Notes under the pieces: generated by a model | The model's input: only the letters and a program-made list of their open reading frames with translations | Told to the model about the DNA's origin: nothing | Database searches by the model: none | Program-made: the position numbers and the translations under genes | Assembly: GCA_048940645.1 (NCBI GenBank) | Contig: JBHLOI010000005.1 | Span: 52,578-116,577, forward strand | Length of the DNA: 64,000 bases | Origin: Promethearchaeota archaeon | GTDB taxonomy: Archaea; Asgardarchaeota; Lokiarchaeia; Sigyniarchaeales; SOKP01 | Direction: 5' to 3' | In this document: positions 40,947-56,628 of the stretch, one piece after another | Layout of the letters: each line of letters starts with the position of its first letter | Position numbering within the stretch: the first letter of the stretch is position 1

Positions 40947-41471
40947 TTATATCGTTTCTAATATTATTTGAGTGATTTTATCAAATATATAATCGACATT
41001 TTCCCCTGTTTTCGAAGAACATTCTATATATTCTGAGAATTTATTTTGTTCTGCGAAAATTCTGCCCTCATTTTCAAAAACTGATCTATTCTCCTGAAGG
41101 TCTAATTTGCTTGCTACTAAAATAGTGGATACTTTTTGATTATGTGTTTTATTTGCTTCATTAAAAACAGATAACCATTCTGTTAAATTCTTAAATGTAT
41201 TATATCGAGTAATATCATACATAAAGATTGTTCCCTGTGCGGCAAGAATAGCACTAGGCAATAAAAATCTAAACTTCTCTTCTCCAGCAAAATCCCAAAT
41301 GTGGAGTTTTATCAGTTTTCTACTCATTTCTAGCTTTTTTAAATAGAAATCCATGCCAAGAGTCGTTATATAAGTTTCTTTAAAAACACCAGAGAGATAA
41401 CGATGCGTTAATGTTGTTTTTCCAACACCACCATCGCCAATTATTACGATTTTAAACTTATATTCATCCAT
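40947..41471 (-). CDS. Rab-like small GTPase
   Basis: G1 GDGGVGKT, G2 TTLG, G3 WDFAGEE, G4 SKLD, G5 SSK; no C-terminal prenylation Cys. Confidence 0.93.
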   Translation of the reverse strand: MDEYKFKIVIIGDGGVGKTTLTHRYLSGVFKETYITTLGMDFYLKKLEMSRKLIKLHIWDFAGEEKFRFLLPSAILAAQGTIFMYDITRYNTFKNLTEWLSVFNEANKTHNQKVSTILVASKLDLQENRSVFENEGRIFAEQNKFSEYIECSSKTGENVDYIFDKITQIILETI

Positions 41472-47036: not shown

Positions 47037-50000
47037 TTACTTCTTTTTGGTCTTTTTATGGTAAATTATGATAACTGCTATAATAACCCCAATCATGATT
47101 GGTACTATTGATATAAGCGGATATGGAATTCCTGTAGGAATTTCTGTCTCAGGAAGTTCAGCAGGTTTTTGAATTACAGTATATTGAAAGGGAGTTACTG
47201 AGTAATTATATCGAATTGCATAATTACCTTGATTATCCCATGCTTGAATGTACCATAATACCGTTGTATTAAGGGTTTGATTTAACATCGTTCCTTGCCA
47301 TGTTCCAACTTGCCCAGATAGTTCTGAAAGATAGATAACGTCCCAAAATGATCCATTATCAATAGAATACCAAATAACAACGTCTTGTATTCCATTTTCT
47401 TCAAATATATCAACAGTTATAATAGGAAAATCCTCGTTTGTAGTATACCCATCATCATTTGAATCTTTATCAACTACAGGATAATCTATATCGGGAGGTC
47501 GATAATCATGGGTATTATGTTCATATGGAAAAGATGTTTCACAGTAACCTGAGGAGTTAAATATATAAGTACCAAATCGTTCATCGATACCCAGTTCTTG
47601 CGCAATAAAATCACCAGATTCGTCATCATAAATTTCATACTTTGCTTCATGGGCATTCCCTACTTCTGCGTAATTTTTAATACTCAACTCAAAAGTAGCA
47701 TTTGATGCTATATAAGGTAATCTCACTGTGACATTTGAACCAAAGGATAAGTCAAATGAGATTTTTCTGGTTATAGTTGCACCAACCTGATGGGTAGAAG
47801 TGTAGGGCGTACCTCCACTTTCCATAAACGTGCCAAGCCAACTTACGGGTATCAAGTTATTATAGATTGCATTTTGAGACTTCCATTCTGTTGAGGCATC
47901 AGTATCACCTGCAAATGTTTCAAAACTTCTAATAATTCCATAATATAGGAGAGGGTTCTCCCATTGAACAGTCCCATTTGAATAAGATTTTCTAGTAGCA
48001 TTAAATACCCATTGTAAAACCCAAGTTTCACCCCAATATCTATCTCCATATCCAGGACCAATATAATCTGGATCATCATTTACTTGACTTGATGTTAAAT
48101 TTGTAGTGTCTATTATTTCATATCGAAAATCGAAACCAGTTTCAGTGGTCATCTTATTTTCTAATAATAAAGAACCTCCCGTATCAGTACCACAATATCC
48201 ATAAAAGTATTCAAGTCCAAAATTTTCTCCTACTATAGTTATCGCCTCAAGACCAACCCCTATTGAAAGCACTGAGGTTTCAGAAAAGCTAGAATAGCTA
48301 TTATCACCATTAGGATCATGCAGAATCATATAGAGTTGTTGTCCTAAAAGTACGGTACTTTGATTTACTGTTTTTATTGCCTCGCCTGTCAATCTGACAA
48401 ATGTTAAGTGGAGTATATCTGTGTCAAAAACAATACTCTGATTTTTGCCGGTCAGAGTAGCGATTACACTACCATCTTCATAATCGCTGAGCACATCAAT
48501 ATTTATTGAAGTCTTATTCCATACATTATAAGTTCTTTGAAATGTTCCATAATCAAGTTCCAGTTCTGCGTCATCCATTTCAACCCAATCATATTCAAAA
48601 GAAAATGTGGTAGGATCGCCTAAAGGAAGGATTATACGTGTATTGTTTACAGGAGTTATCCATTCTATAAAAGGTTGTTCATAAGCTCTCCCTGAATCCT
48701 CTGAAGAATTTTCACTTGTTCCTGCAATGGTTGTAGCACTAACAACATAGTAATACCTAGTACCAATTATAGCTCCAGTATCGTTATATTGATTAGTTAT
48801 TGTTGTGGTTAAAAGAGTTTTCGGGCCTCCAAATTCCTCTCCCCGATATACATTATAATTAATAAGTGGTGGTCCATTTGTAACTACTGAATCCCAGGTT
48901 AATAAAATATGTGCAGCACCATTTTTTGCTCGAAAATTATTGGGTGGGTCTGGAGGATAGAGTGTTAATTTAATCATATTTGGCTGTATTTGATAATCAC
49001 TCCAAGAGCGCGTATCAAAATAATTAAATTTTTCAAATCTTAGTTTAATACTTTTTGTTCCATTAAAATAATTAGTTCCATTTACGAGGATTTCTTTTTT
49101 TATCAATTCTGTACTATCTATTGTCCCTAGTGAATCCCAGTCTAAATTAATGAAATTATATAGCTTAATTTCTAAACCGATTACAGTTTCATCCATTTGT
49201 GTATTTAAATCAAATTTTGAAACTTCATCGAGGGTATAATTTCCGTAGTTTAAAATATAATCAACTTGAATTTCATACTTATGATAGCTATAGTAGATGT
49301 GCGCAAAATCGAAATTTAACCATGCCCTACTCCCCATTTCTTCACTACAATTCATTGATAGTTGTAGATATTTAATATAACCTCCCTCTTTTACTCTATC
49401 AAATACAGGCCCTTGAGTAATATTCCACCATTGATAATAAATTCGTTTGGCGGTTGGGTATTGATCAATTACTTTAGATTGGTTTGATCCATCATCAGCA
49501 AAAGCCCAGATCCGTAAGTCTGTAGATTGATCTAAACCATCAGTCGAATCCGAATCGGGCCATACTTCATAAAGAAGAGAAATTCTATGTACATGTCTAG
49601 CTATAATATTATTAAAATCACTATATTCACCCCATTTCAATTTAATTATTCCGGGAAAATCACTTCCTCCATTTGCTCTAAGATAGATATATTTATAATC
49701 TTTCTTTTTATAAGTATCCGTGAAATTCCAATCACCACCATCAGTACTTCCAAAAGTCCCTGTATGTATAGGGATTGAAAGAGGAGAAACCTCATTTTCT
49801 AAAAAATTATAAGAATTGCTTATTGCAAAGTCTGTTGAATCAAAAGTTCCGTCCAATTCTCTTATATTATCCTCATTCCATAAAATTCCATCAGTTTGAT
49901 TCCCTTTTATAATATTTTTATCTGCATAAAGGAAATCAATTCCAGAAGTAGATGATTTAGGTATCTTGGTCTTAATATCAATTTTTTCTGAGTTATCATC

Positions 50001-50114
50001 ATTTCTTTCTGCTTTTTTAGAAGAAGGTATTGTTAATAAAAGAAGTCCACTTAAAATTAAAATAACTATAACAAAATGAAGCTTAAATTTGGATTTTACT
50101 TTCAATATATTCAT
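47037..50114 (-). CDS. Large cell-surface protein: signal peptide, FN3, ILHDP-type beta-rich domain, Ig-like domain and C-terminal TM anchor
   Basis: FN3 (LLTWD...YNVYR...YYYVVSA); C-terminal TM followed by KKTKKK. Confidence 0.8.
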   Translation of the reverse strand: MNILKVKSKFKLHFVIVILILSGLLLLTIPSSKKAERNDDNSEKIDIKTKIPKSSTSGIDFLYADKNIIKGNQTDGILWNEDNIRELDGTFDSTDFAISNSYNFLENEVSPLSIPIHTGTFGSTDGGDWNFTDTYKKKDYKYIYLRANGGSDFPGIIKLKWGEYSDFNNIIARHVHRISLLYEVWPDSDSTDGLDQSTDLRIWAFADDGSNQSKVIDQYPTAKRIYYQWWNITQGPVFDRVKEGGYIKYLQLSMNCSEEMGSRAWLNFDFAHIYYSYHKYEIQVDYILNYGNYTLDEVSKFDLNTQMDETVIGLEIKLYNFINLDWDSLGTIDSTELIKKEILVNGTNYFNGTKSIKLRFEKFNYFDTRSWSDYQIQPNMIKLTLYPPDPPNNFRAKNGAAHILLTWDSVVTNGPPLINYNVYRGEEFGGPKTLLTTTITNQYNDTGAIIGTRYYYVVSATTIAGTSENSSEDSGRAYEQPFIEWITPVNNTRIILPLGDPTTFSFEYDWVEMDDAELELDYGTFQRTYNVWNKTSINIDVLSDYEDGSVIATLTGKNQSIVFDTDILHLTFVRLTGEAIKTVNQSTVLLGQQLYMILHDPNGDNSYSSFSETSVLSIGVGLEAITIVGENFGLEYFYGYCGTDTGGSLLLENKMTTETGFDFRYEIIDTTNLTSSQVNDDPDYIGPGYGDRYWGETWVLQWVFNATRKSYSNGTVQWENPLLYYGIIRSFETFAGDTDASTEWKSQNAIYNNLIPVSWLGTFMESGGTPYTSTHQVGATITRKISFDLSFGSNVTVRLPYIASNATFELSIKNYAEVGNAHEAKYEIYDDESGDFIAQELGIDERFGTYIFNSSGYCETSFPYEHNTHDYRPPDIDYPVVDKDSNDDGYTTNEDFPIITVDIFEENGIQDVVIWYSIDNGSFWDVIYLSELSGQVGTWQGTMLNQTLNTTVLWYIQAWDNQGNYAIRYNYSVTPFQYTVIQKPAELPETEIPTGIPYPLISIVPIMIGVIIAVIIIYHKKTKKK

Positions 50115-52137: not shown

Positions 52138-52425
52138 CTCCTTACATAATTATATCTTAATTTAATAGAATTTATTCCTAATTTAAAGATCGTTGACTCA
52201 AAATAAAAATAAATTGGAGTCCAATCTTTTTTGATTTTATTCTTAAGAAAAAATAAAAAATTATTGAGTACAAATCCTTACTATTCTTGCGCTGAAATTC
52301 TCTCTCGTCTAAGGATGAAGTTTTAATTTGTTTCATATATACTACACAAAATAGTTTATTAAAAAAACCAACAATAAGAATAGTGAAAGATCAATAAAAA
52401 CTTAAAAAGTTTAAAAGATAAGTGA

Positions 52426-52719
52426 ATGAAAATGGAAGAGATAAAAAATAACGGTTTAAAGATTTACAAAGCAATATTTGAAGGAAAGAAACAAGTTGAA
52501 CTTGATGGTATTGAATACCCTATTAAAAAATTTTCAAGCGGAATTAAATACCTAGACCTTTTCGGTTATCGTTTCATAGAGCAAAATTGGAGGAAAAAGT
52601 CGGAATGGGGAAAAAAGGCACGAGAAGGTCATAAAATTATGTGGATTATAAAGGGAAGGCGTTATATTGCAAGAATTATGGATGGGGAATATAATGATTT
52701 ATTGAAAAAAGAAGATTGA
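52426..52719 (+). CDS. Small basic hypothetical protein
   Basis: 97 aa; FIEQN..KKSEW...AREGHKIMW motif. Confidence 0.7.
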   Translation: MKMEEIKNNGLKIYKAIFEGKKQVELDGIEYPIKKFSSGIKYLDLFGYRFIEQNWRKKSEWGKKAREGHKIMWIIKGRRYIARIMDGEYNDLLKKED

Positions 52720-52862
52720 AAACATGTAATGTGCTATTTCTTTAAGTTTAAAAAGTTCTAAATTATTAAATATTTGGTAGAAAAATTTTTTCTCTAAAAC
52801 CATTTTAATAATTTGATATTATTAACTTAATGTTTAAATCTATATAATGGAAAGGGGAGACG

Positions 52863-55271
52863 TTGAAACAATTCAAAATAGTTATTCTTGGAGACTATAA
52901 AGCAGGAAAGACGTCTTTAATTAATCGATTTGTTAAGCAAGAATTTTTCAATCTTCATATTCCTACAGTTGGTTTCAAATTTTTAAAGAAGACTACTCTC
53001 CTTGAAAATGACTTAAAGTATGAAGTTGTTTTTTGGGATACTGGGGGGTTAAGCAGTCAAAAAGTTTCAATGAGACAAAAAATATTCAAATTTACTGATG
53101 CTGTAATAATTGTAATCGATTCTCAAAGCAAAGATAAGAAGAATATTCTAAATCGATGGGAAAAATATGTTCGAGAAAATAATAATGATAATGTGCCAAT
53201 TTTTATTATTTTCACTAAGTTCGATCTAACATCATCTTATATAAACATAGAAGAAATGTTTGAAAAACAACTTCTAACTAATTCTGGTTTACAATATTTC
53301 TTAGTTTCCGCTAAAACAGATGAGAATGTTAAGGAAAGTTTTGCAAAGATAATAAATTTTATTGTAAGTTGTGATAAAAAAAGAAACTCCAATGCGATTA
53401 TCGAAAAAGTAAGTAGATATAAAAAGTATAATTTAGAACTTAAAGAAATTGAAGCTCTTGAAGAATTAGAGGAGTATTTAATTAAAAGTTTAGGAAATTT
53501 CGACTTTATTTATCCACATAATCTTAATAGTATTAAAAGGGAAGGCTTTCCAATTCTATTTAAAATTGATGAAGATTCATTTGGAATTAGTATAGAAAAT
53601 GGAAATGTATCTGGAATTGGGCTTTTCAATTGTAATTTAAATAATCTTCCAAATTCAAGTGTTAATTTCAAATTTTTAAAAAGATTAACTTTAAGATGTA
53701 ATCCTTTAAATAACGTTCCTGAAATAATTGCAAATTTAAAAAGTATTGAATATTTAGACTTAGCTCTTACTAATTTATCATTTTTCCCTAAAACAATTAA
53801 AAATCTAAACAATCTAAAAGAATTAAATTTAGCTAACAATCGATTAACTTCTTTACCTGATAGATTTGGAAATCTCCAATCATTAAATATTTTAAATTTA
53901 GAGAATAATCCAATTAAAAAGCTTCCTGATTCAATCTGCAATTTAAGATATTTAAGAGAATTATACTTAGAAGCACCGACTTTTTTCTTCAAGGGAAATT
54001 TGACTGAATTACCTAATAATCTCGGAAATCTCATATCACTTAAAATATTAGATTTAAGTTCCTGTGAATTAGTGCGCCTTCCAGAATCTATTGGCAACCT
54101 TGAAGGACTTAATACCTTAGATCTTTATAATAATAATTTAATTTCACTTCCTGATTCCATTGGTAAATTAAAGCAACTTGAAATTCTAAATCTAGAAACT
54201 AATAATTTGGAAACTGTACCTGATTCTATTGGACATTTAGTAAGTTTAAAACGTATATCCCTGAAAAATAACCCGCTGCGAAAGAAAGGTTCAGATAAGT
54301 TTAAAGCTTTAGCTTTAAAATCTACCGGTAGAAATTATGATAGGTTAATGGAGATTGCTGAGATCTGTAGATTGGAGGAATTTAAATTCAGAAGCATACA
54401 AAAAACGCCATTAAAGAAGAAATATAGATTTATAAAAGCTTTAAGCTATGCTGTTTCAGTCGCATTAATAGGATTTATTACTTTTTTAAATATCAATATT
54501 AACTCCCAAACATCTAACTTTATGATTTGGTTTCTGTTTGTTGGCGCTTTAATTATTAATCTCCTAATTGGAACATGTATTATTGCTACTTTATCTAGAT
54601 ACTTTAAAATTTCTGTAATGTTTTTTAAAAAACGGATTTATAAATATTTCGATATTTTTGTTATAATATATCTGATTTGGTCTTTAAGAGCTGTCGTTAA
54701 AATAACCTTATCTGTTGAACTTATTCCATCTATTAATTTTTTGTTTGAATTCACAATTCCAGAAACTTTTTTAAACTTTTTAACAATATTAGGTTATGAT
54801 TTAGATTTAACATTCTTAGAGAATATTGATTTGTTTTTTGGTCATTTTTATTTAAAAATCTTTAGTAGTGCCCTCGTATTCTGGGCTTTGTATAGAAATG
54901 GATTTGGACACATTAAGAGGACCGCATTTGAAGAAAAAAAAAATAGAAATATGTGGTCATTTCTTTTGATAGGTTTATTTGGAGCTTTTTCACTTGCTGT
55001 GATGAACTATAGCAATCTTAAGCCTTTCTTAAGTATAGGTTATGATATAGGAGTAATTTTTGGAGGATATTTATTTATTTGGGAAAAAAATCGTCCAAAA
55101 AAATCATACTTCCTCACATATATTCTTCTAATATTGGGTAGTATATCGCTAATTTGGGTTCTCTCATTATGGAATATGATTATTTCTGTTATTACAAGTA
55201 TTATTTTAATAATTCTATATTTTATTATAAGAAGAATTCAGAATAAGAAATTATCTTTATATCTCTACTAG
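52863..55271 (+). CDS. Rab-like GTPase - leucine-rich repeat - multi-pass membrane fusion protein
   Basis: G1 GDYKAGKT, G2 PTVG, G3 WDTGG, G4 TKFD, G5 SAK; about 10 LxxLxLxxNxLxxLP repeats; about 8 C-terminal TMs. TTG start with AAGGGGA upstream. Confidence 0.9.
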   Translation: MKQFKIVILGDYKAGKTSLINRFVKQEFFNLHIPTVGFKFLKKTTLLENDLKYEVVFWDTGGLSSQKVSMRQKIFKFTDAVIIVIDSQSKDKKNILNRWEKYVRENNNDNVPIFIIFTKFDLTSSYINIEEMFEKQLLTNSGLQYFLVSAKTDENVKESFAKIINFIVSCDKKRNSNAIIEKVSRYKKYNLELKEIEALEELEEYLIKSLGNFDFIYPHNLNSIKREGFPILFKIDEDSFGISIENGNVSGIGLFNCNLNNLPNSSVNFKFLKRLTLRCNPLNNVPEIIANLKSIEYLDLALTNLSFFPKTIKNLNNLKELNLANNRLTSLPDRFGNLQSLNILNLENNPIKKLPDSICNLRYLRELYLEAPTFFFKGNLTELPNNLGNLISLKILDLSSCELVRLPESIGNLEGLNTLDLYNNNLISLPDSIGKLKQLEILNLETNNLETVPDSIGHLVSLKRISLKNNPLRKKGSDKFKALALKSTGRNYDRLMEIAEICRLEEFKFRSIQKTPLKKKYRFIKALSYAVSVALIGFITFLNININSQTSNFMIWFLFVGALIINLLIGTCIIATLSRYFKISVMFFKKRIYKYFDIFVIIYLIWSLRAVVKITLSVELIPSINFLFEFTIPETFLNFLTILGYDLDLTFLENIDLFFGHFYLKIFSSALVFWALYRNGFGHIKRTAFEEKKNRNMWSFLLIGLFGAFSLAVMNYSNLKPFLSIGYDIGVIFGGYLFIWEKNRPKKSYFLTYILLILGSISLIWVLSLWNMIISVITSIILIILYFIIRRIQNKKLSLYLY

Positions 55272-55281
55272 CTAGAAAAAT

Positions 55282-56628
55282 CTAAAGCTTCAATGATTTT
55301 AATCCTCGTATTGATTCTGGTAAGTTTCTTATTGTATTTCCACTTAAATCAAAAACCTTAAGTCGCTTTAAATTGATTAAATTTTCGCTAATATGATTAA
55401 TTATCTGTTCATCTTCATGATTTTTTAGATAGAAATATTCCAGATTTTCTAAATTGCCTATAGAATTAGGTATTTCATTGATTTTATTATAGCTTAGATT
55501 TAAAGTTTTTAAAGCTATTAATTCTCCAATACAATCTGGGATACTCCGGATATTTTGATTCAACATACACAATTCTTCTAAAAATCTTAATTTACATATT
55601 TCTTTGGGAAAGATCCCTATACGGGATAATTCAGATGATAATTGTATGGCAATTACATTGCCACTTTGGTTTAGTTTATAATAAAATAATAGTGATGGCA
55701 TAAATGAAGTCTCTGATTCTAATTTGACAAAAGCTTGGCCTGTAAAAATCTCTAATAAGCCCAATACTGAAGCTTCCTCAAATTTAACTCCGTTTTTAAC
55801 ATATTTTTTAATATAGCCTTCTGTTGAAGAAATATATAATACCCACTTTGGAATTGATTCAATTTCGTTATTTTTTAAAGTAAGACTTTTAATTTGAGAG
55901 AGAGATCCGTACAAATCTGGTAAGTCTCCAATTTTGCACCTATTAATCTCTAAAAATTTTAATTTTGAAAGATTTTGAAGGGATTTTGGTACTTCTTCAA
56001 GATCATTTAAAATTAAACCTCTAATAAACCCTTCTCTTGCTGAAGTTATTCTCCCTAATCCCTTATAACCGATTTCTGTATTTTCTTTTATTAATGTTTT
56101 TCTCTCTTCTTCTTTAATTTCAAATTTTGATAAAAAATCTTTAAAATCCTTCGTAAATTTTTTATAATCATTGTAATCTAACTGTAAGATGAATTCAGAA
56201 TCATATTTATTTAAGTTATATATCTTGCTTAATCTTGTTAAAAGTTTTTCTTTAAACTTTTTAACTTCTGGATTTTGAGAGCGCTCTGTGAAATCTAAAC
56301 TTTTTTTGAAAAATAATATTGATTTTTCATTCTGAATTCGCCATTCTAAAGCATTTTGTGCTTCTTCTAAATTAGTATTAATAATAAATTTTGCAGCAGC
56401 AGTTCTTACTAAAGGAGATTCATCAGATATTAAACTCTTTTCAATAAGTTTGGAAATGTCAATATCTATTAATGAGAGTTGTTCAAGGACTTTAATTGCA
56501 TTTGCTCTTATTTCTTCGTTATCACTTTCATTTATAAGTGATTCAAGTAATTTTAAGGATTCTTCTTTACTAATTTCATTATTAAGAAATTTTTCATAAA
56601 TTTTTCCTGGATCTAAGCGATTAAGCAT
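55282..56628 (-). CDS. HEAT-repeat plus leucine-rich repeat protein
   Basis: N-terminal HEAT/PBS-like repeats (EEIRANAI, SDESPLVRTAAA) and two LRR blocks. Confidence 0.85.
   Translation of the reverse strand: MLNRLDPGKIYEKFLNNEISKEESLKLLESLINESDNEEIRANAIKVLEQLSLIDIDISKLIEKSLISDESPLVRTAAAKFIINTNLEEAQNALEWRIQNEKSILFFKKSLDFTERSQNPEVKKFKEKLLTRLSKIYNLNKYDSEFILQLDYNDYKKFTKDFKDFLSKFEIKEEERKTLIKENTEIGYKGLGRITSAREGFIRGLILNDLEEVPKSLQNLSKLKFLEINRCKIGDLPDLYGSLSQIKSLTLKNNEIESIPKWVLYISSTEGYIKKYVKNGVKFEEASVLGLLEIFTGQAFVKLESETSFMPSLLFYYKLNQSGNVIAIQLSSELSRIGIFPKEICKLRFLEELCMLNQNIRSIPDCIGELIALKTLNLSYNKINEIPNSIGNLENLEYFYLKNHEDEQIINHISENLINLKRLKVFDLSGNTIRNLPESIRGLKSLKL

What the first reader, a model, noticed from the sequence alone, without database searches (positions are those of the whole stretch)
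52863..55271. Rab-like GTPase-LRR-8TM fusion with a natural GTP-locked-type active site
Seen: one 802-aa ORF joins a complete G1-G5 small GTPase (about 52863-53370), about 10 LRRs (about 53600-54275) and about 8 TM helices (about 54430-55230). Switch II reads WDTGGL (53034-53051) instead of WDTAGQ. The P-loop GDYKAGKT puts Tyr and Lys at the Ras 12/13 positions. Established: Gln-to-Leu here is the classic hydrolysis-dead change (Ras Q61L, Rab5 Q79L), and bulky residues at 12/13 impair GAP action. Roco proteins run LRR-ROC-COR and LRRC8 runs TM-LRR, so neither matches this order. Inference: a membrane-embedded nucleotide-gated sensor, channel or immune-type receptor that replaces Rab prenylation with a polytopic anchor.
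Basis: partly seen in the sequence, partly recalled or inferred. Interest (0 to 1): 0.8.

Follow-up and report, generated by a model that had tools for sequence, protein, structure and literature searches.

The report
Membrane-built Rab-like GTPase-LRR protein
This Asgard archaeal gene really does encode one protein that joins a Rab-like GTP switch lacking its catalytic glutamine, a ten-repeat leucine-rich arm and a conserved eight-helix membrane module with no fold match found; the family is real but narrow in range and unstudied, and "GTP-locked" is only one of several readings.

Summary
Window 52863-55271(+) is one 802-aa ORF with a TTG start and a GGGGAG ribosome-binding site. It has a G domain with all G1-G5 motifs (P-loop GDYKAGKT, switch II WDTGGL), ten 23-residue LRRs and eight TM helices. 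K+R counts are 26 inside and 0 outside, so both ends are cytoplasmic.

It is not a chimera. About 40 full-length homologues from independent Asgard assemblies share the architecture. Leu or Phe at the Ras-Q61 position occurs in 26 of 26 aligned members. In this genome it is the only Ras-like domain with Leu there.

New here:
- The LRR+TM8 pair is the older core. It also occurs without a GTPase, with LRRs on either or both sides, or as adjacent genes. The G domain appears to have been added once.
- Most relatives carry an extra N-terminal roadblock-like domain that this short form lacks.
- The TM domain has no Pfam, PDB-sequence or fold match. Its most conserved part includes an acidic outer loop.
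- The family was found in 23 of 400 genomes of the phylum, all in one GTDB family.

"GTP-locked" is not established. Hydrophobic-substituted GTPases such as FeoB hydrolyse GTP by other means, and the P-loop Tyr-Lys resembles the GBP Tyr-Arg P-loop.

The scan has found this family before on other DNA, and those reports agree with mine.

The parts
52848..52862 (+). Ribosome-binding site region (GGAAAGGGGAG) just upstream of the TTG start; an AT-rich TTTAAA/TATATAA stretch lies about 20-35 nt upstream
   Evidence: Read directly from the sequence. Function as an RBS or promoter is inferred, not tested.
52863..55271 (+). Whole gene, 802 codons plus stop: G domain, linker, LRR, juxtamembrane helices, 8-TM domain
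   Evidence: About 40 full-length homologues. Single copy in the genome.
52866..53372 (+). Ras-superfamily, Rab-like G domain (res 2-170)
   Evidence: Pfam Ras 85.3 bits, Roc 70.7, Arf 60.9. Best solved relatives are Rab3A, Rab6 and Rab5, E about 1e-18 to 1e-19.
52890..52913 (+). P-loop GDYKAGKT, with Tyr and Lys at Ras positions 12 and 13
   Evidence: In 26 homologues, position 12 is Tyr in 17 and position 13 is Lys in 19 and Arg in 2.
53034..53051 (+). Switch II WDTGGL, with Leu63 at the Ras Gln61 position
   Evidence: Leu in 18 and Phe in 8 of 26 homologues. It is the only Ras-like domain with Leu here among those with a readable switch II in this genome.
53214..53225 (+). G4 motif TKFD (guanine specificity)
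   Evidence: [T/S/N]KxD, with Lys and Asp invariant.
53307..53315 (+). G5 motif SAK
53373..53600 (+). Helical linker plus the cap-like segment preceding LRR1 (res 171-246), the least conserved part
   Evidence: Mean pairwise identity 0.37. Alignment.
53601..54287 (+). Ten leucine-rich repeats (res 247-475) of about 23 residues with an LxxLxLxxNxLxxLP core; predicted cytoplasmic
   Evidence: Pfam LRR_14 E 7.7e-31 and LRR_8 E 3.6e-24. Repeat register.
54288..54407 (+). Two conserved juxtamembrane helices (res 476-515) with a KFKALA..G..Y.R motif
   Evidence: AF2 helices with pLDDT 88-91. Invariant F480, A482, K486, G489 and R494.
54408..55265 (+). Eight-helix membrane domain (res 516-801), N-in and C-in, with no fold match found
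   Evidence: AF2 pLDDT 81, pTM 0.72. K+R 26 inside, 0 outside. No Pfam, PDB or Atlas match.
54711..54839 (+). Acidic outer loop with short helices (res 617-659); 7 Asp/Glu and no Lys/Arg; carries conserved E619, P622, N625, N654 and D656. With TM4 and TM5 it forms the most conserved core.

Best explanation
The gene encodes a membrane-integral, nucleotide-regulated LRR protein of an Asgard archaeon.

Shown: all three modules lie in one conserved chain. The G domain and the LRR arm face the cytoplasm. The chain crosses the membrane eight times and ends inside.

Shown: the LRR+TM8 pair is the conserved core of a small, Asgard-restricted family. A Rab-like G domain of the Asgard roadblock-GTPase lineage was added once, and this window carries a short form that lacks the roadblock domain.

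Inferred mechanism: the G domain still binds GTP/GDP and Mg2+, because G1, the G2 Thr, G3, G4 and G5 are intact. Its nucleotide state then sets the conformation or partner binding of the adjacent LRR arm and, through the conserved juxtamembrane helices, of the TM8 module.

Inferred: because the catalytic Gln is replaced by Leu or Phe throughout the family, hydrolysis is either very slow or uses a non-Gln route. Candidate elements are the near-conserved Lys/Arg at P-loop position 13, the conserved Gln66 three residues downstream, a partner, or self-association. It would be a slow switch or timer rather than a simply dead one.

Inferred: the TM8 module is more than an anchor. Its conservation and its acidic outer loop suggest that it senses or conducts something at the membrane.
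For: - Architecture and conservation.
- Topology: (K+R 26 inside, 0 outside). LRR-TM-LRR variants need both ends on one side.
- Core module: TM8 occurs as LRR-TM, LRR-TM-LRR, TM-LRR and TM-alone forms. In L043 it is a separate gene 66 nt after a 146-aa LRR gene.
- Single addition of the G domain: all G-bearing members form one clade (SH-aLRT 99) nested among G-less ones on a midpoint-rooted quick tree.
- Domain conservation: TM 0.58 and LRR 0.56 against G 0.44 mean pairwise identity. The core spanning the outer loop, TM4 and TM5 is the most conserved.
- G motifs: all are intact, with L/F at the Gln position in 26/26, basic residue at position 13 in 21/26 and Gln66 in 22/26.
- Paralogues in the same genome with a readable switch II: 47 have Gln, 11 have Glu, and only this one has Leu.
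- The nearest paralogues carry an N-terminal region with weak roadblock-fold (MAPKK1_Int) matches before the G domain, and have GDFKVGKT or GDYAVGKT with DIGGQ.
- The N-terminal extension of the long forms aligns to Robl_LC7: hhalign probability 71%, E 3.8e-5, 91 columns, plus weak collinear PDB roadblock hits.
- HAS-GTPases hydrolyse GTP without Gln.
- The GBP P-loop GLYRTGKS with DTEG is a precedent for Tyr plus a basic residue in the P-loop.
Against: - No biochemical data exist for any member, so nucleotide binding, hydrolysis and coupling are all inferred.
- Position 13 is Lys rather than Arg and is not invariant (Q, N and E also occur). Position 12 varies.
- No fold or family match gives the TM8 domain a function, and no internal repeat typical of transporters was found.
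- Gene neighbourhoods are not conserved across the family, so no partner is indicated.
- The distribution is patchy even within the genus (4 of 41 other genomes). This fits an accessory rather than a core cellular role.
- The tree is a quick, midpoint-rooted one with long outgroup branches.
Confidence: 0.55

Rival explanations
1. One reading: the G domain is constitutively GTP-bound ('locked on') because Leu63 abolishes hydrolysis and Tyr12/Lys13 block GAP action. The protein would be a permanently active, nucleotide-loaded membrane scaffold or a GTP-level sensor.
For: L/F is fixed at the Gln position. The top two PDB sequence hits are Rab3A and Rab6B chains that read WDTAGL at this position, while a Rab3A chain with WDTAGQ ranks third, so the local sequence is the same. 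Naturally GTPase-deficient Ras-like proteins such as Rnd and RhoH are known (recalled, not checked here).
Against: Hydrophobic substitution is the rule in HAS-GTPases, which do hydrolyse. All nucleotide-binding and Mg2+-binding motifs and the switch regions remain under selection. Most family members carry an N-terminal roadblock-like domain, a fold known from GTPase regulators, which suggests cycling. Tyr/Phe12 and Lys13 also occur in paralogues that keep Gln.
Confidence: 0.22
2. A G-domain-gated transporter or channel. TM8 would be a permease or pore for a cation, given the acidic outer loop, with activity controlled by the cytoplasmic GTPase as in FeoB and LRRs acting as a cytoplasmic regulatory arm as in LRRC8.
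For: The TM domain is highly conserved and carries polar or charged residues within or beside the helices, including N566, D597, R609, E619, N654, D656 and H661. FeoB is a precedent for a HAS-type G domain fused to a polytopic permease. TM-LRR variants have the LRRC8 order.
Confidence: 0.15
3. Anchor only. TM8 merely tethers a Rab-like switch and its LRR effector arm to the membrane, substituting for the lipid anchors that Asgard GTPases lack.
For: The protein has no C-terminal Cys motif and ends with a TM helix and a short basic tail. The G domain and LRR are cytoplasmic.
Against: One or two helices would suffice as an anchor. Here eight helices are better conserved than the G domain (0.58 against 0.44), and the central core spanning the outer loop, TM4 and TM5 is the best-conserved part. 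The TM8-LRR module also exists without any GTPase.
Confidence: 0.06
4. An innate-immunity or defence receptor of the NTPase-LRR kind, with the membrane domain as effector (for example, membrane disruption on activation).
For: The NTPase-plus-LRR logic recalls NLR and STAND sensors. The distribution is patchy within a genus. One G-less relative lies beside helicase and NERD genes.
Against: PADLOC gives no match. The NTPase is a small Ras-like G domain, not a STAND ATPase. There is one copy per genome. Synteny with housekeeping genes is stable in close relatives. No mobile-element genes were seen among the eight neighbouring genes scanned.
Confidence: 0.05
5. Assembly chimera or mis-joined ORF.
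For: The source is a fragmented MAG of 126 contigs. Public contigs laid on the gene are fragmentary.
Against: About 40 full-length homologues on independent contigs from NCBI, JGI, ENA and Logan show the same domain order. Composition is uniform. An independent study's contigs match the LRR-to-TM region exactly (records 21-24).
Confidence: 0.01

Closest known systems
Asgard roadblock-GTPase fusion proteins (RB-GTPase architectures described for MK-D1 by Tran et al. 2024, PMC10933270)
   Same: The nearest paralogues in this genome carry an N-terminal region with weak roadblock-fold matches before the G domain, and have similar P-loops (GDFKVGKT, GDYAVGKT). Most family members carry a probable roadblock domain before the G domain.
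   Different: The window protein lacks the roadblock domain. No described RB-GTPase carries LRRs and a polytopic membrane domain, and that paper mentions neither. The paralogues keep Gln.
FeoB (prokaryotic Fe2+ transporter: G domain fused to a polytopic membrane domain; HAS-GTPase)
   Same: [quoted passage not shown]
   Different: The FeoB G domain belongs to the K+-activated TEES class with P-loop and switch I Asn residues; ours is Rab-like with Lys at position 13. FeoB has no LRRs. Neither FeoB_N nor FeoB_C matches. The TM folds were not matched.
Roco proteins (LRR-Roc-COR, e.g. LRRK2 and bacterial Roco)
   Same: A Ras-like G domain and LRRs lie in one chain. Pfam Roc scores 70.7 bits.
   Different: The order is reversed (G before LRR). 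No COR domain is detected, although COR families are detected in other hits of the same search. Ours is membrane-integral.
LRRC8/SWELL1 volume-regulated anion channel subunits (TM-LRR)
   Same: A polytopic membrane domain is fused to a cytoplasmic LRR solenoid. Some G-less relatives have the TM-LRR order.
   Different: LRRC8 has four pannexin-like helices at the N-terminus and no GTPase. Ours has eight helices at the C-terminus. No fold match was seen.
Guanylate-binding proteins (GBP1/2), dimerisation-activated large GTPases
   Same: The P-loop GLYRTGKS has Tyr and a basic residue at the same two positions as GDYKAGKT, and G3 is DTEG. From memory, the next residue is Leu.
   Different: GBPs have a large dynamin-like G domain with an RD-type G4. 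Ours has a canonical TKFD G4 and a small Rab-like fold. This is a mechanistic analogy only, not homology beyond the P-loop NTPase level.

Membership tests
Ras superfamily small GTPase | All five G motifs (G1 GxxxxGK[ST], G2 Thr, G3 DxxG, G4 [NT]KxD, G5 SAK) | tested here: met
   GDYKAGKT, T35, DTGG, TKFD and SAK, conserved in 26 homologues.
Ras superfamily small GTPase | Profile match above the curated threshold | tested here: met
   Pfam Ras 85.3 bits against 21.6; NCBIfam small_GTP 69.8 against 42.5.
Rab family proper | Catalytic Gln in WDTAGQ | tested here: not met
   The motif is WDTGGL, and the position is Leu or Phe in 26/26.
Rab family proper | C-terminal Cys prenylation motif | tested here: not met
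   The G domain is followed by LRRs and TM helices. The chain ends ...KKLSLYLY with no Cys motif.
Rab family proper | Rab-specific switch II/interswitch motifs (e.g. YYRGA) | tested here: not met
   In the alignment to Rab3A, KIFKFTDA stands opposite AYYRGAMG.
Roco | COR domain directly after Roc | tested here: not met
   No COR family appears among the Pfam hits of P0001. PF16095 and PF25497 are recorded for other hits of the same search.
Roco | LRRs N-terminal to the G domain | tested here: not met
   LRRs at residues 247-475 follow the G domain at 2-170.
HAS-GTPases (functional class) | [quoted passage not shown] | tested here: met
   Leu63; L in 18 and F in 8 of 26. Class definition.
HAS-GTPases (functional class) | GTP hydrolysis by an alternative water-aligning element | not testable with these tools
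   Needs biochemistry. Candidates K13 and Q66 are only inferred from conservation.
FeoB | FeoB_N G domain and FeoB_C/Gate membrane domain | tested here: not met
   Neither PF02421 nor a FeoB_C match for P0001, and none for 64 TM domains.
LRRC8/pannexin-like | N-terminal four-helix pannexin-like pore domain followed by LRRs | tested here: inconclusive
   The domain order is opposite and there are eight helices. No LRRC8 chain is listed in the fold searches, but absence from those lists does not exclude it.
Asgard roadblock-GTPase fusions | Roadblock/LC7 domain fused N-terminal to the G domain | tested here: not met
   The window ORF starts 4 residues before strand beta-1. The upstream 97-aa ORF is unrelated to the extension. 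Long homologues probably meet the feature.
Known anti-phage defence families (PADLOC) | Match to a defence-system protein model | tested here: not met
   No PADLOC family at E <= 0.001 for the protein or its two neighbours.

The most novel reading that the evidence does not exclude
TM8-LRR proteins are an undescribed, Asgard-specific class of transmembrane receptor. The conserved acidic outer loop of the eight-helix domain would sense an external or membrane cue. In this lineage the receptor has captured its own Rab-like G protein, with or without a roadblock regulator, in the same chain. That would make a one-polypeptide receptor and G-protein switch with a non-Gln, self-association-dependent GTPase mechanism, in archaea related to the eukaryotic ancestor.
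Probability: 0.15. Interest if true: 0.85.

Novelty: new variant of a known kind. Interest (0 to 1): 0.55.

Why it matters
Asgard archaea encode dozens of Ras-like GTPases; this genome yielded 85 G-domain profile matches. How any of them reach or act on membranes is an open question, because they lack eukaryote-type lipid anchors. This family hard-wires one such switch into the membrane next to a protein-binding LRR arm, so it offers a direct and assayable case.

It also defines a membrane domain with no family or fold assignment. That domain always travels with LRRs, and its conserved acidic outer face suggests sensing or conduction.

The importance is limited because the family is confined to one GTDB family of Asgard archaea and is patchy there. 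No partner or substrate is indicated, and nothing links it to eukaryotic machinery.

Tried and rejected
- TM-domain homodimer (complex prediction, two copies of A4): no verdict, score 0.00. This is not evidence either way.
- RNA evidence: no RNA holder is listed among public runs.
- Contigs of four DNA runs laid on 52400-55700 are short and fragmentary. They do not span the whole gene, and the G/LRR junction is covered only by a diverged relative. The chimera test therefore rests on the homologues.
- First AF2 model from 26 sequences was too poor to use (pLDDT 59). It was superseded by the 64-sequence model.
- Fold and family searches of the TM domain gave nothing usable:
  - Foldseek PDB, best E 0.81.
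  - ESM Atlas by shape, TM-scores 0.29 or below.
  - Atlas by features, no usable hit.
  - Pfam on 64 members, only scattered chance hits.
  - PDB by profile, none.
The fold is therefore 'unmatched', not proven new.
- Internal duplication in TM8: none by hhalign.
- The upstream 97-aa ORF as a split-off roadblock domain: no similarity and no Pfam match.
- A search for free-standing close relatives of the G domain returned one weak hit (34% identity). The word index limits this search.
- PADLOC: no hits.
- Literature searches for this architecture found no description.
Full report
**The observation**

Window 52863-55271(+) is a single open frame of 802 codons. It begins at TTG. GGGGAG lies 6 nt upstream, and the nearest upstream ATG is out of frame. 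Close homologues begin at the same residue.

Pfam places a Ras/Roc/Arf-type G domain at residues 5-166 and LRR families at about 250-475. Nothing matches residues 500-802.

All five G motifs are present: GDYKAGKT, T35, DTGG, TKFD and SAK.

I count ten LRRs of about 23 residues between residues 247 and 475. I also count eight hydrophobic helices between residues 524 and 790.

**It is not an artefact**

A word-indexed search of 5.8 billion proteins found about 40 homologues that cover 95-100% of the length at 45-84% identity. They come from NCBI, JGI, ENA and Logan assemblies. Where named, they are labelled Promethearchaeota, Lokiarchaeota, Hodarchaeota or Hermodarchaeota, and annotated only as 'GTP-binding protein'.

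The gene is single-copy in its 3.83-Mb, 126-contig, 89.6%-complete MAG. That MAG derives from sediment metagenomes.

Public contigs laid on the gene are too fragmentary to span it. However, an independent study's contigs match 53541-54686 exactly, across the LRR-to-TM transition.

**The G domain**

By sequence, its nearest solved relatives are Rab3A, Rab6 and Rab5 (E about 1e-18 to 1e-19). The top two hits are Rab3A and Rab6B chains that read WDTAGL at the switch II position, while a Rab3A chain with WDTAGQ ranks third.

It is not a Rab proper. It lacks the catalytic Gln, the YYRGA-type switch II motif and any C-terminal Cys motif.

Counts in 26 aligned homologues:
- Ras-Q61 position: Leu in 18, Phe in 8.
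- P-loop position 12: Tyr in 17.
- P-loop position 13: Lys in 19, Arg in 2.
- Gln three residues downstream (Gln66): 22.

I scanned six-frame ORFs of the whole genome with a G-domain profile and found 85 matches. Among those with a readable switch II, 47 have Gln and 11 have Glu (a WDF[AG]GE group). Only this protein has Leu, apart from two with Ile (LDTPGI, IDLRGI), which I take to be Era/Obg-type. The substitution is therefore derived, specific and fixed.

The nearest paralogues in the genome are 33-35% identical. They carry N-terminal regions with weak roadblock-fold (MAPKK1_Int) matches. Their P-loops are GDFKVGKT or GDYAVGKT, with DIGGQ in switch II. The aromatic-plus-Lys P-loop therefore predates the loss of Gln.

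**Is it 'GTP-locked'?**

That is one possible reading, but the inference from Ras Q61L does not hold on its own.

Hydrophobic substitution of the catalytic Gln defines the HAS-GTPases. FeoB belongs to this class, and it is itself a polytopic membrane protein with an N-terminal G domain. FeoB still hydrolyses GTP through backbone-aligned water and a K+ ion bound by a P-loop Asn.

GBPs carry GLYRTGKS and DTEG. Their Tyr47 and Arg48 rearrange on dimerisation. That Arg48 acts as the in-cis finger is my recollection of Ghosh et al. 2006 and was not checked here.

Tyr12 and Lys13 in this family occupy those same two P-loop positions. I therefore treat 'slow or alternatively catalysed switch' as more likely than 'dead', but only biochemistry can decide.

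**The membrane domain**

With 64 aligned sequences, AlphaFold2 gives pLDDT 81 and pTM 0.72. The model has two juxtamembrane helices followed by eight TM helices, with short helices in the loop between TM3 and TM4.

Lys+Arg counts are 26 on the predicted inner side and 0 on the outer side. This gives an N-in, C-in topology with the G domain and LRRs in the cytoplasm.

The 43-residue outer loop (residues 617-659) has 7 acidic and no basic residues. It carries conserved E619, P622, N625, N654 and D656. Together with TM4 and TM5 it is the most conserved stretch.

Mean pairwise identity by region is: TM region 0.58, LRRs 0.56, G domain 0.44 and linker 0.37.

No family or fold could be assigned:
- Pfam: none.
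- PDB by profile: none.
- Foldseek: best E 0.81.
- VIA-align wide: only hairpin matches.
- ESM Atlas: TM-scores 0.29 or below.
- Internal repeat: none.

I could not refold sub-domains, so the fold is unmatched rather than proven new.

**The family and its history**

An exhaustive HMM search of 1.84 billion representatives found only 32 clusters with this TM domain.

Outside the G-bearing proteins, the domain occurs as LRR-TM, LRR-TM-LRR, TM-LRR and TM alone. One TM-alone gene follows a 146-aa LRR gene by 66 nt. LRR+TM8 is therefore the constant pair.

On a quick, midpoint-rooted tree of the TM domain, all G-bearing proteins form one clade (SH-aLRT 99) nested among G-less ones. This suggests a single capture of the G domain.

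Most G-bearing members are about 945-965 aa and carry an extra N-terminal domain of about 150 aa. That domain aligns to Robl_LC7 (hhalign probability 71%, E 3.8e-5, 91 columns) and gives weak collinear hits to dynein roadblock chains.

Short forms like this one are interleaved with long ones on the tree, which implies repeated loss of that domain.

In 400 genomes of the phylum, the domain is present in 23. All 23 are in one GTDB family (22 of 134 others), and only 4 of 41 other genomes of the same genus have it.

**Gene context**

Close relatives share the local order: rRNA methyltransferase, CYTH, an unknown 95-97-aa ORF, this gene, a convergent LRR protein, and a nucleotidyltransferase. An ESCRT cluster lies a few kb upstream.

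More distant members sit elsewhere. Some are next to tandem small GTPases and Robl_LC7 genes, and others are in unrelated surroundings.

No partner is indicated, and PADLOC finds no defence family.

**Verdict**

This is a real, conserved, lineage-restricted Asgard protein. It places a Rab-like G domain and an LRR arm on a conserved eight-helix membrane module of unknown function.

The 'GTP-locked' and 'anchor' interpretations are only partly supported.

I found no description of this architecture in the literature I could search.

The scan has met the family before on other genomes: long forms in e1-5499045 and e1-5590581, and short forms in e1-5528403 and e1-5528416. Those conclusions agree with mine.

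I rate it a new variant of a known kind, namely multidomain Asgard small GTPases with FeoB-like G-to-membrane coupling. Interest is moderate.

Noticed in passing
window 52426-52719 (+): A 97-aa ORF directly upstream has no Pfam or PADLOC match. A 95-aa ORF occupies the same position in two relatives at 61-64% identity (L002 7598-7885, L005 7564-7851). It is unrelated to the roadblock-like extension of the long forms.
   Followed up: partly
window 55282-56628 (-): A convergent 448-aa HEAT-plus-LRR protein ends 10 nt after the stop of the GTPase-LRR-TM gene. A 446-aa LRR protein occupies the same position in relatives (L002, L005, L006). It is a possible but untested partner.
   Followed up: partly
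window about 40959-41459 (-) (G000:C60:93536-94036): A free-standing 176-aa small GTPase has the P-loop GDGGVGKT and switch II WDFAGE, with Glu at the catalytic Gln position. Eleven paralogues in this genome and tandem arrays in other Asgard loci (L004, L010) share this WDF[AG]GE signature.
   Followed up: partly
G000:C15 (L012 1024-1998 +) and G000:C114 (L013 151-2001 +): These are the nearest paralogues of the G domain. One has an N-terminal region with a weak roadblock-fold match before the G domain (324 aa); the other has two G domains with such a region between them (616 aa). Their P-loops are GDFKVGKT and GDYAVGKT, and both keep Gln.
   Followed up: partly
L043 5494-5934 and 6001-7185 (+): In one metagenomic relative, the TM8 domain is a separate 394-aa gene that follows a 146-aa LRR gene by 66 nt. 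This is a split version of the LRR-TM8 pair.
   Followed up: no
window 47037-50114 (-): A 1025-aa ORF with no Pfam match at E <= 0.001. Another first-reader note covers part of it.
   Followed up: no
whole genome G000: A G-domain profile gives 85 matches among six-frame ORFs of a 3.8-Mb genome. Many lie in multidomain ORFs of 300-880 aa.
   Followed up: partly
window 53510-54097 (-): A 195-aa antisense ORF lies inside the LRR-coding region. I take it to be spurious, but did not examine it.
   Followed up: no
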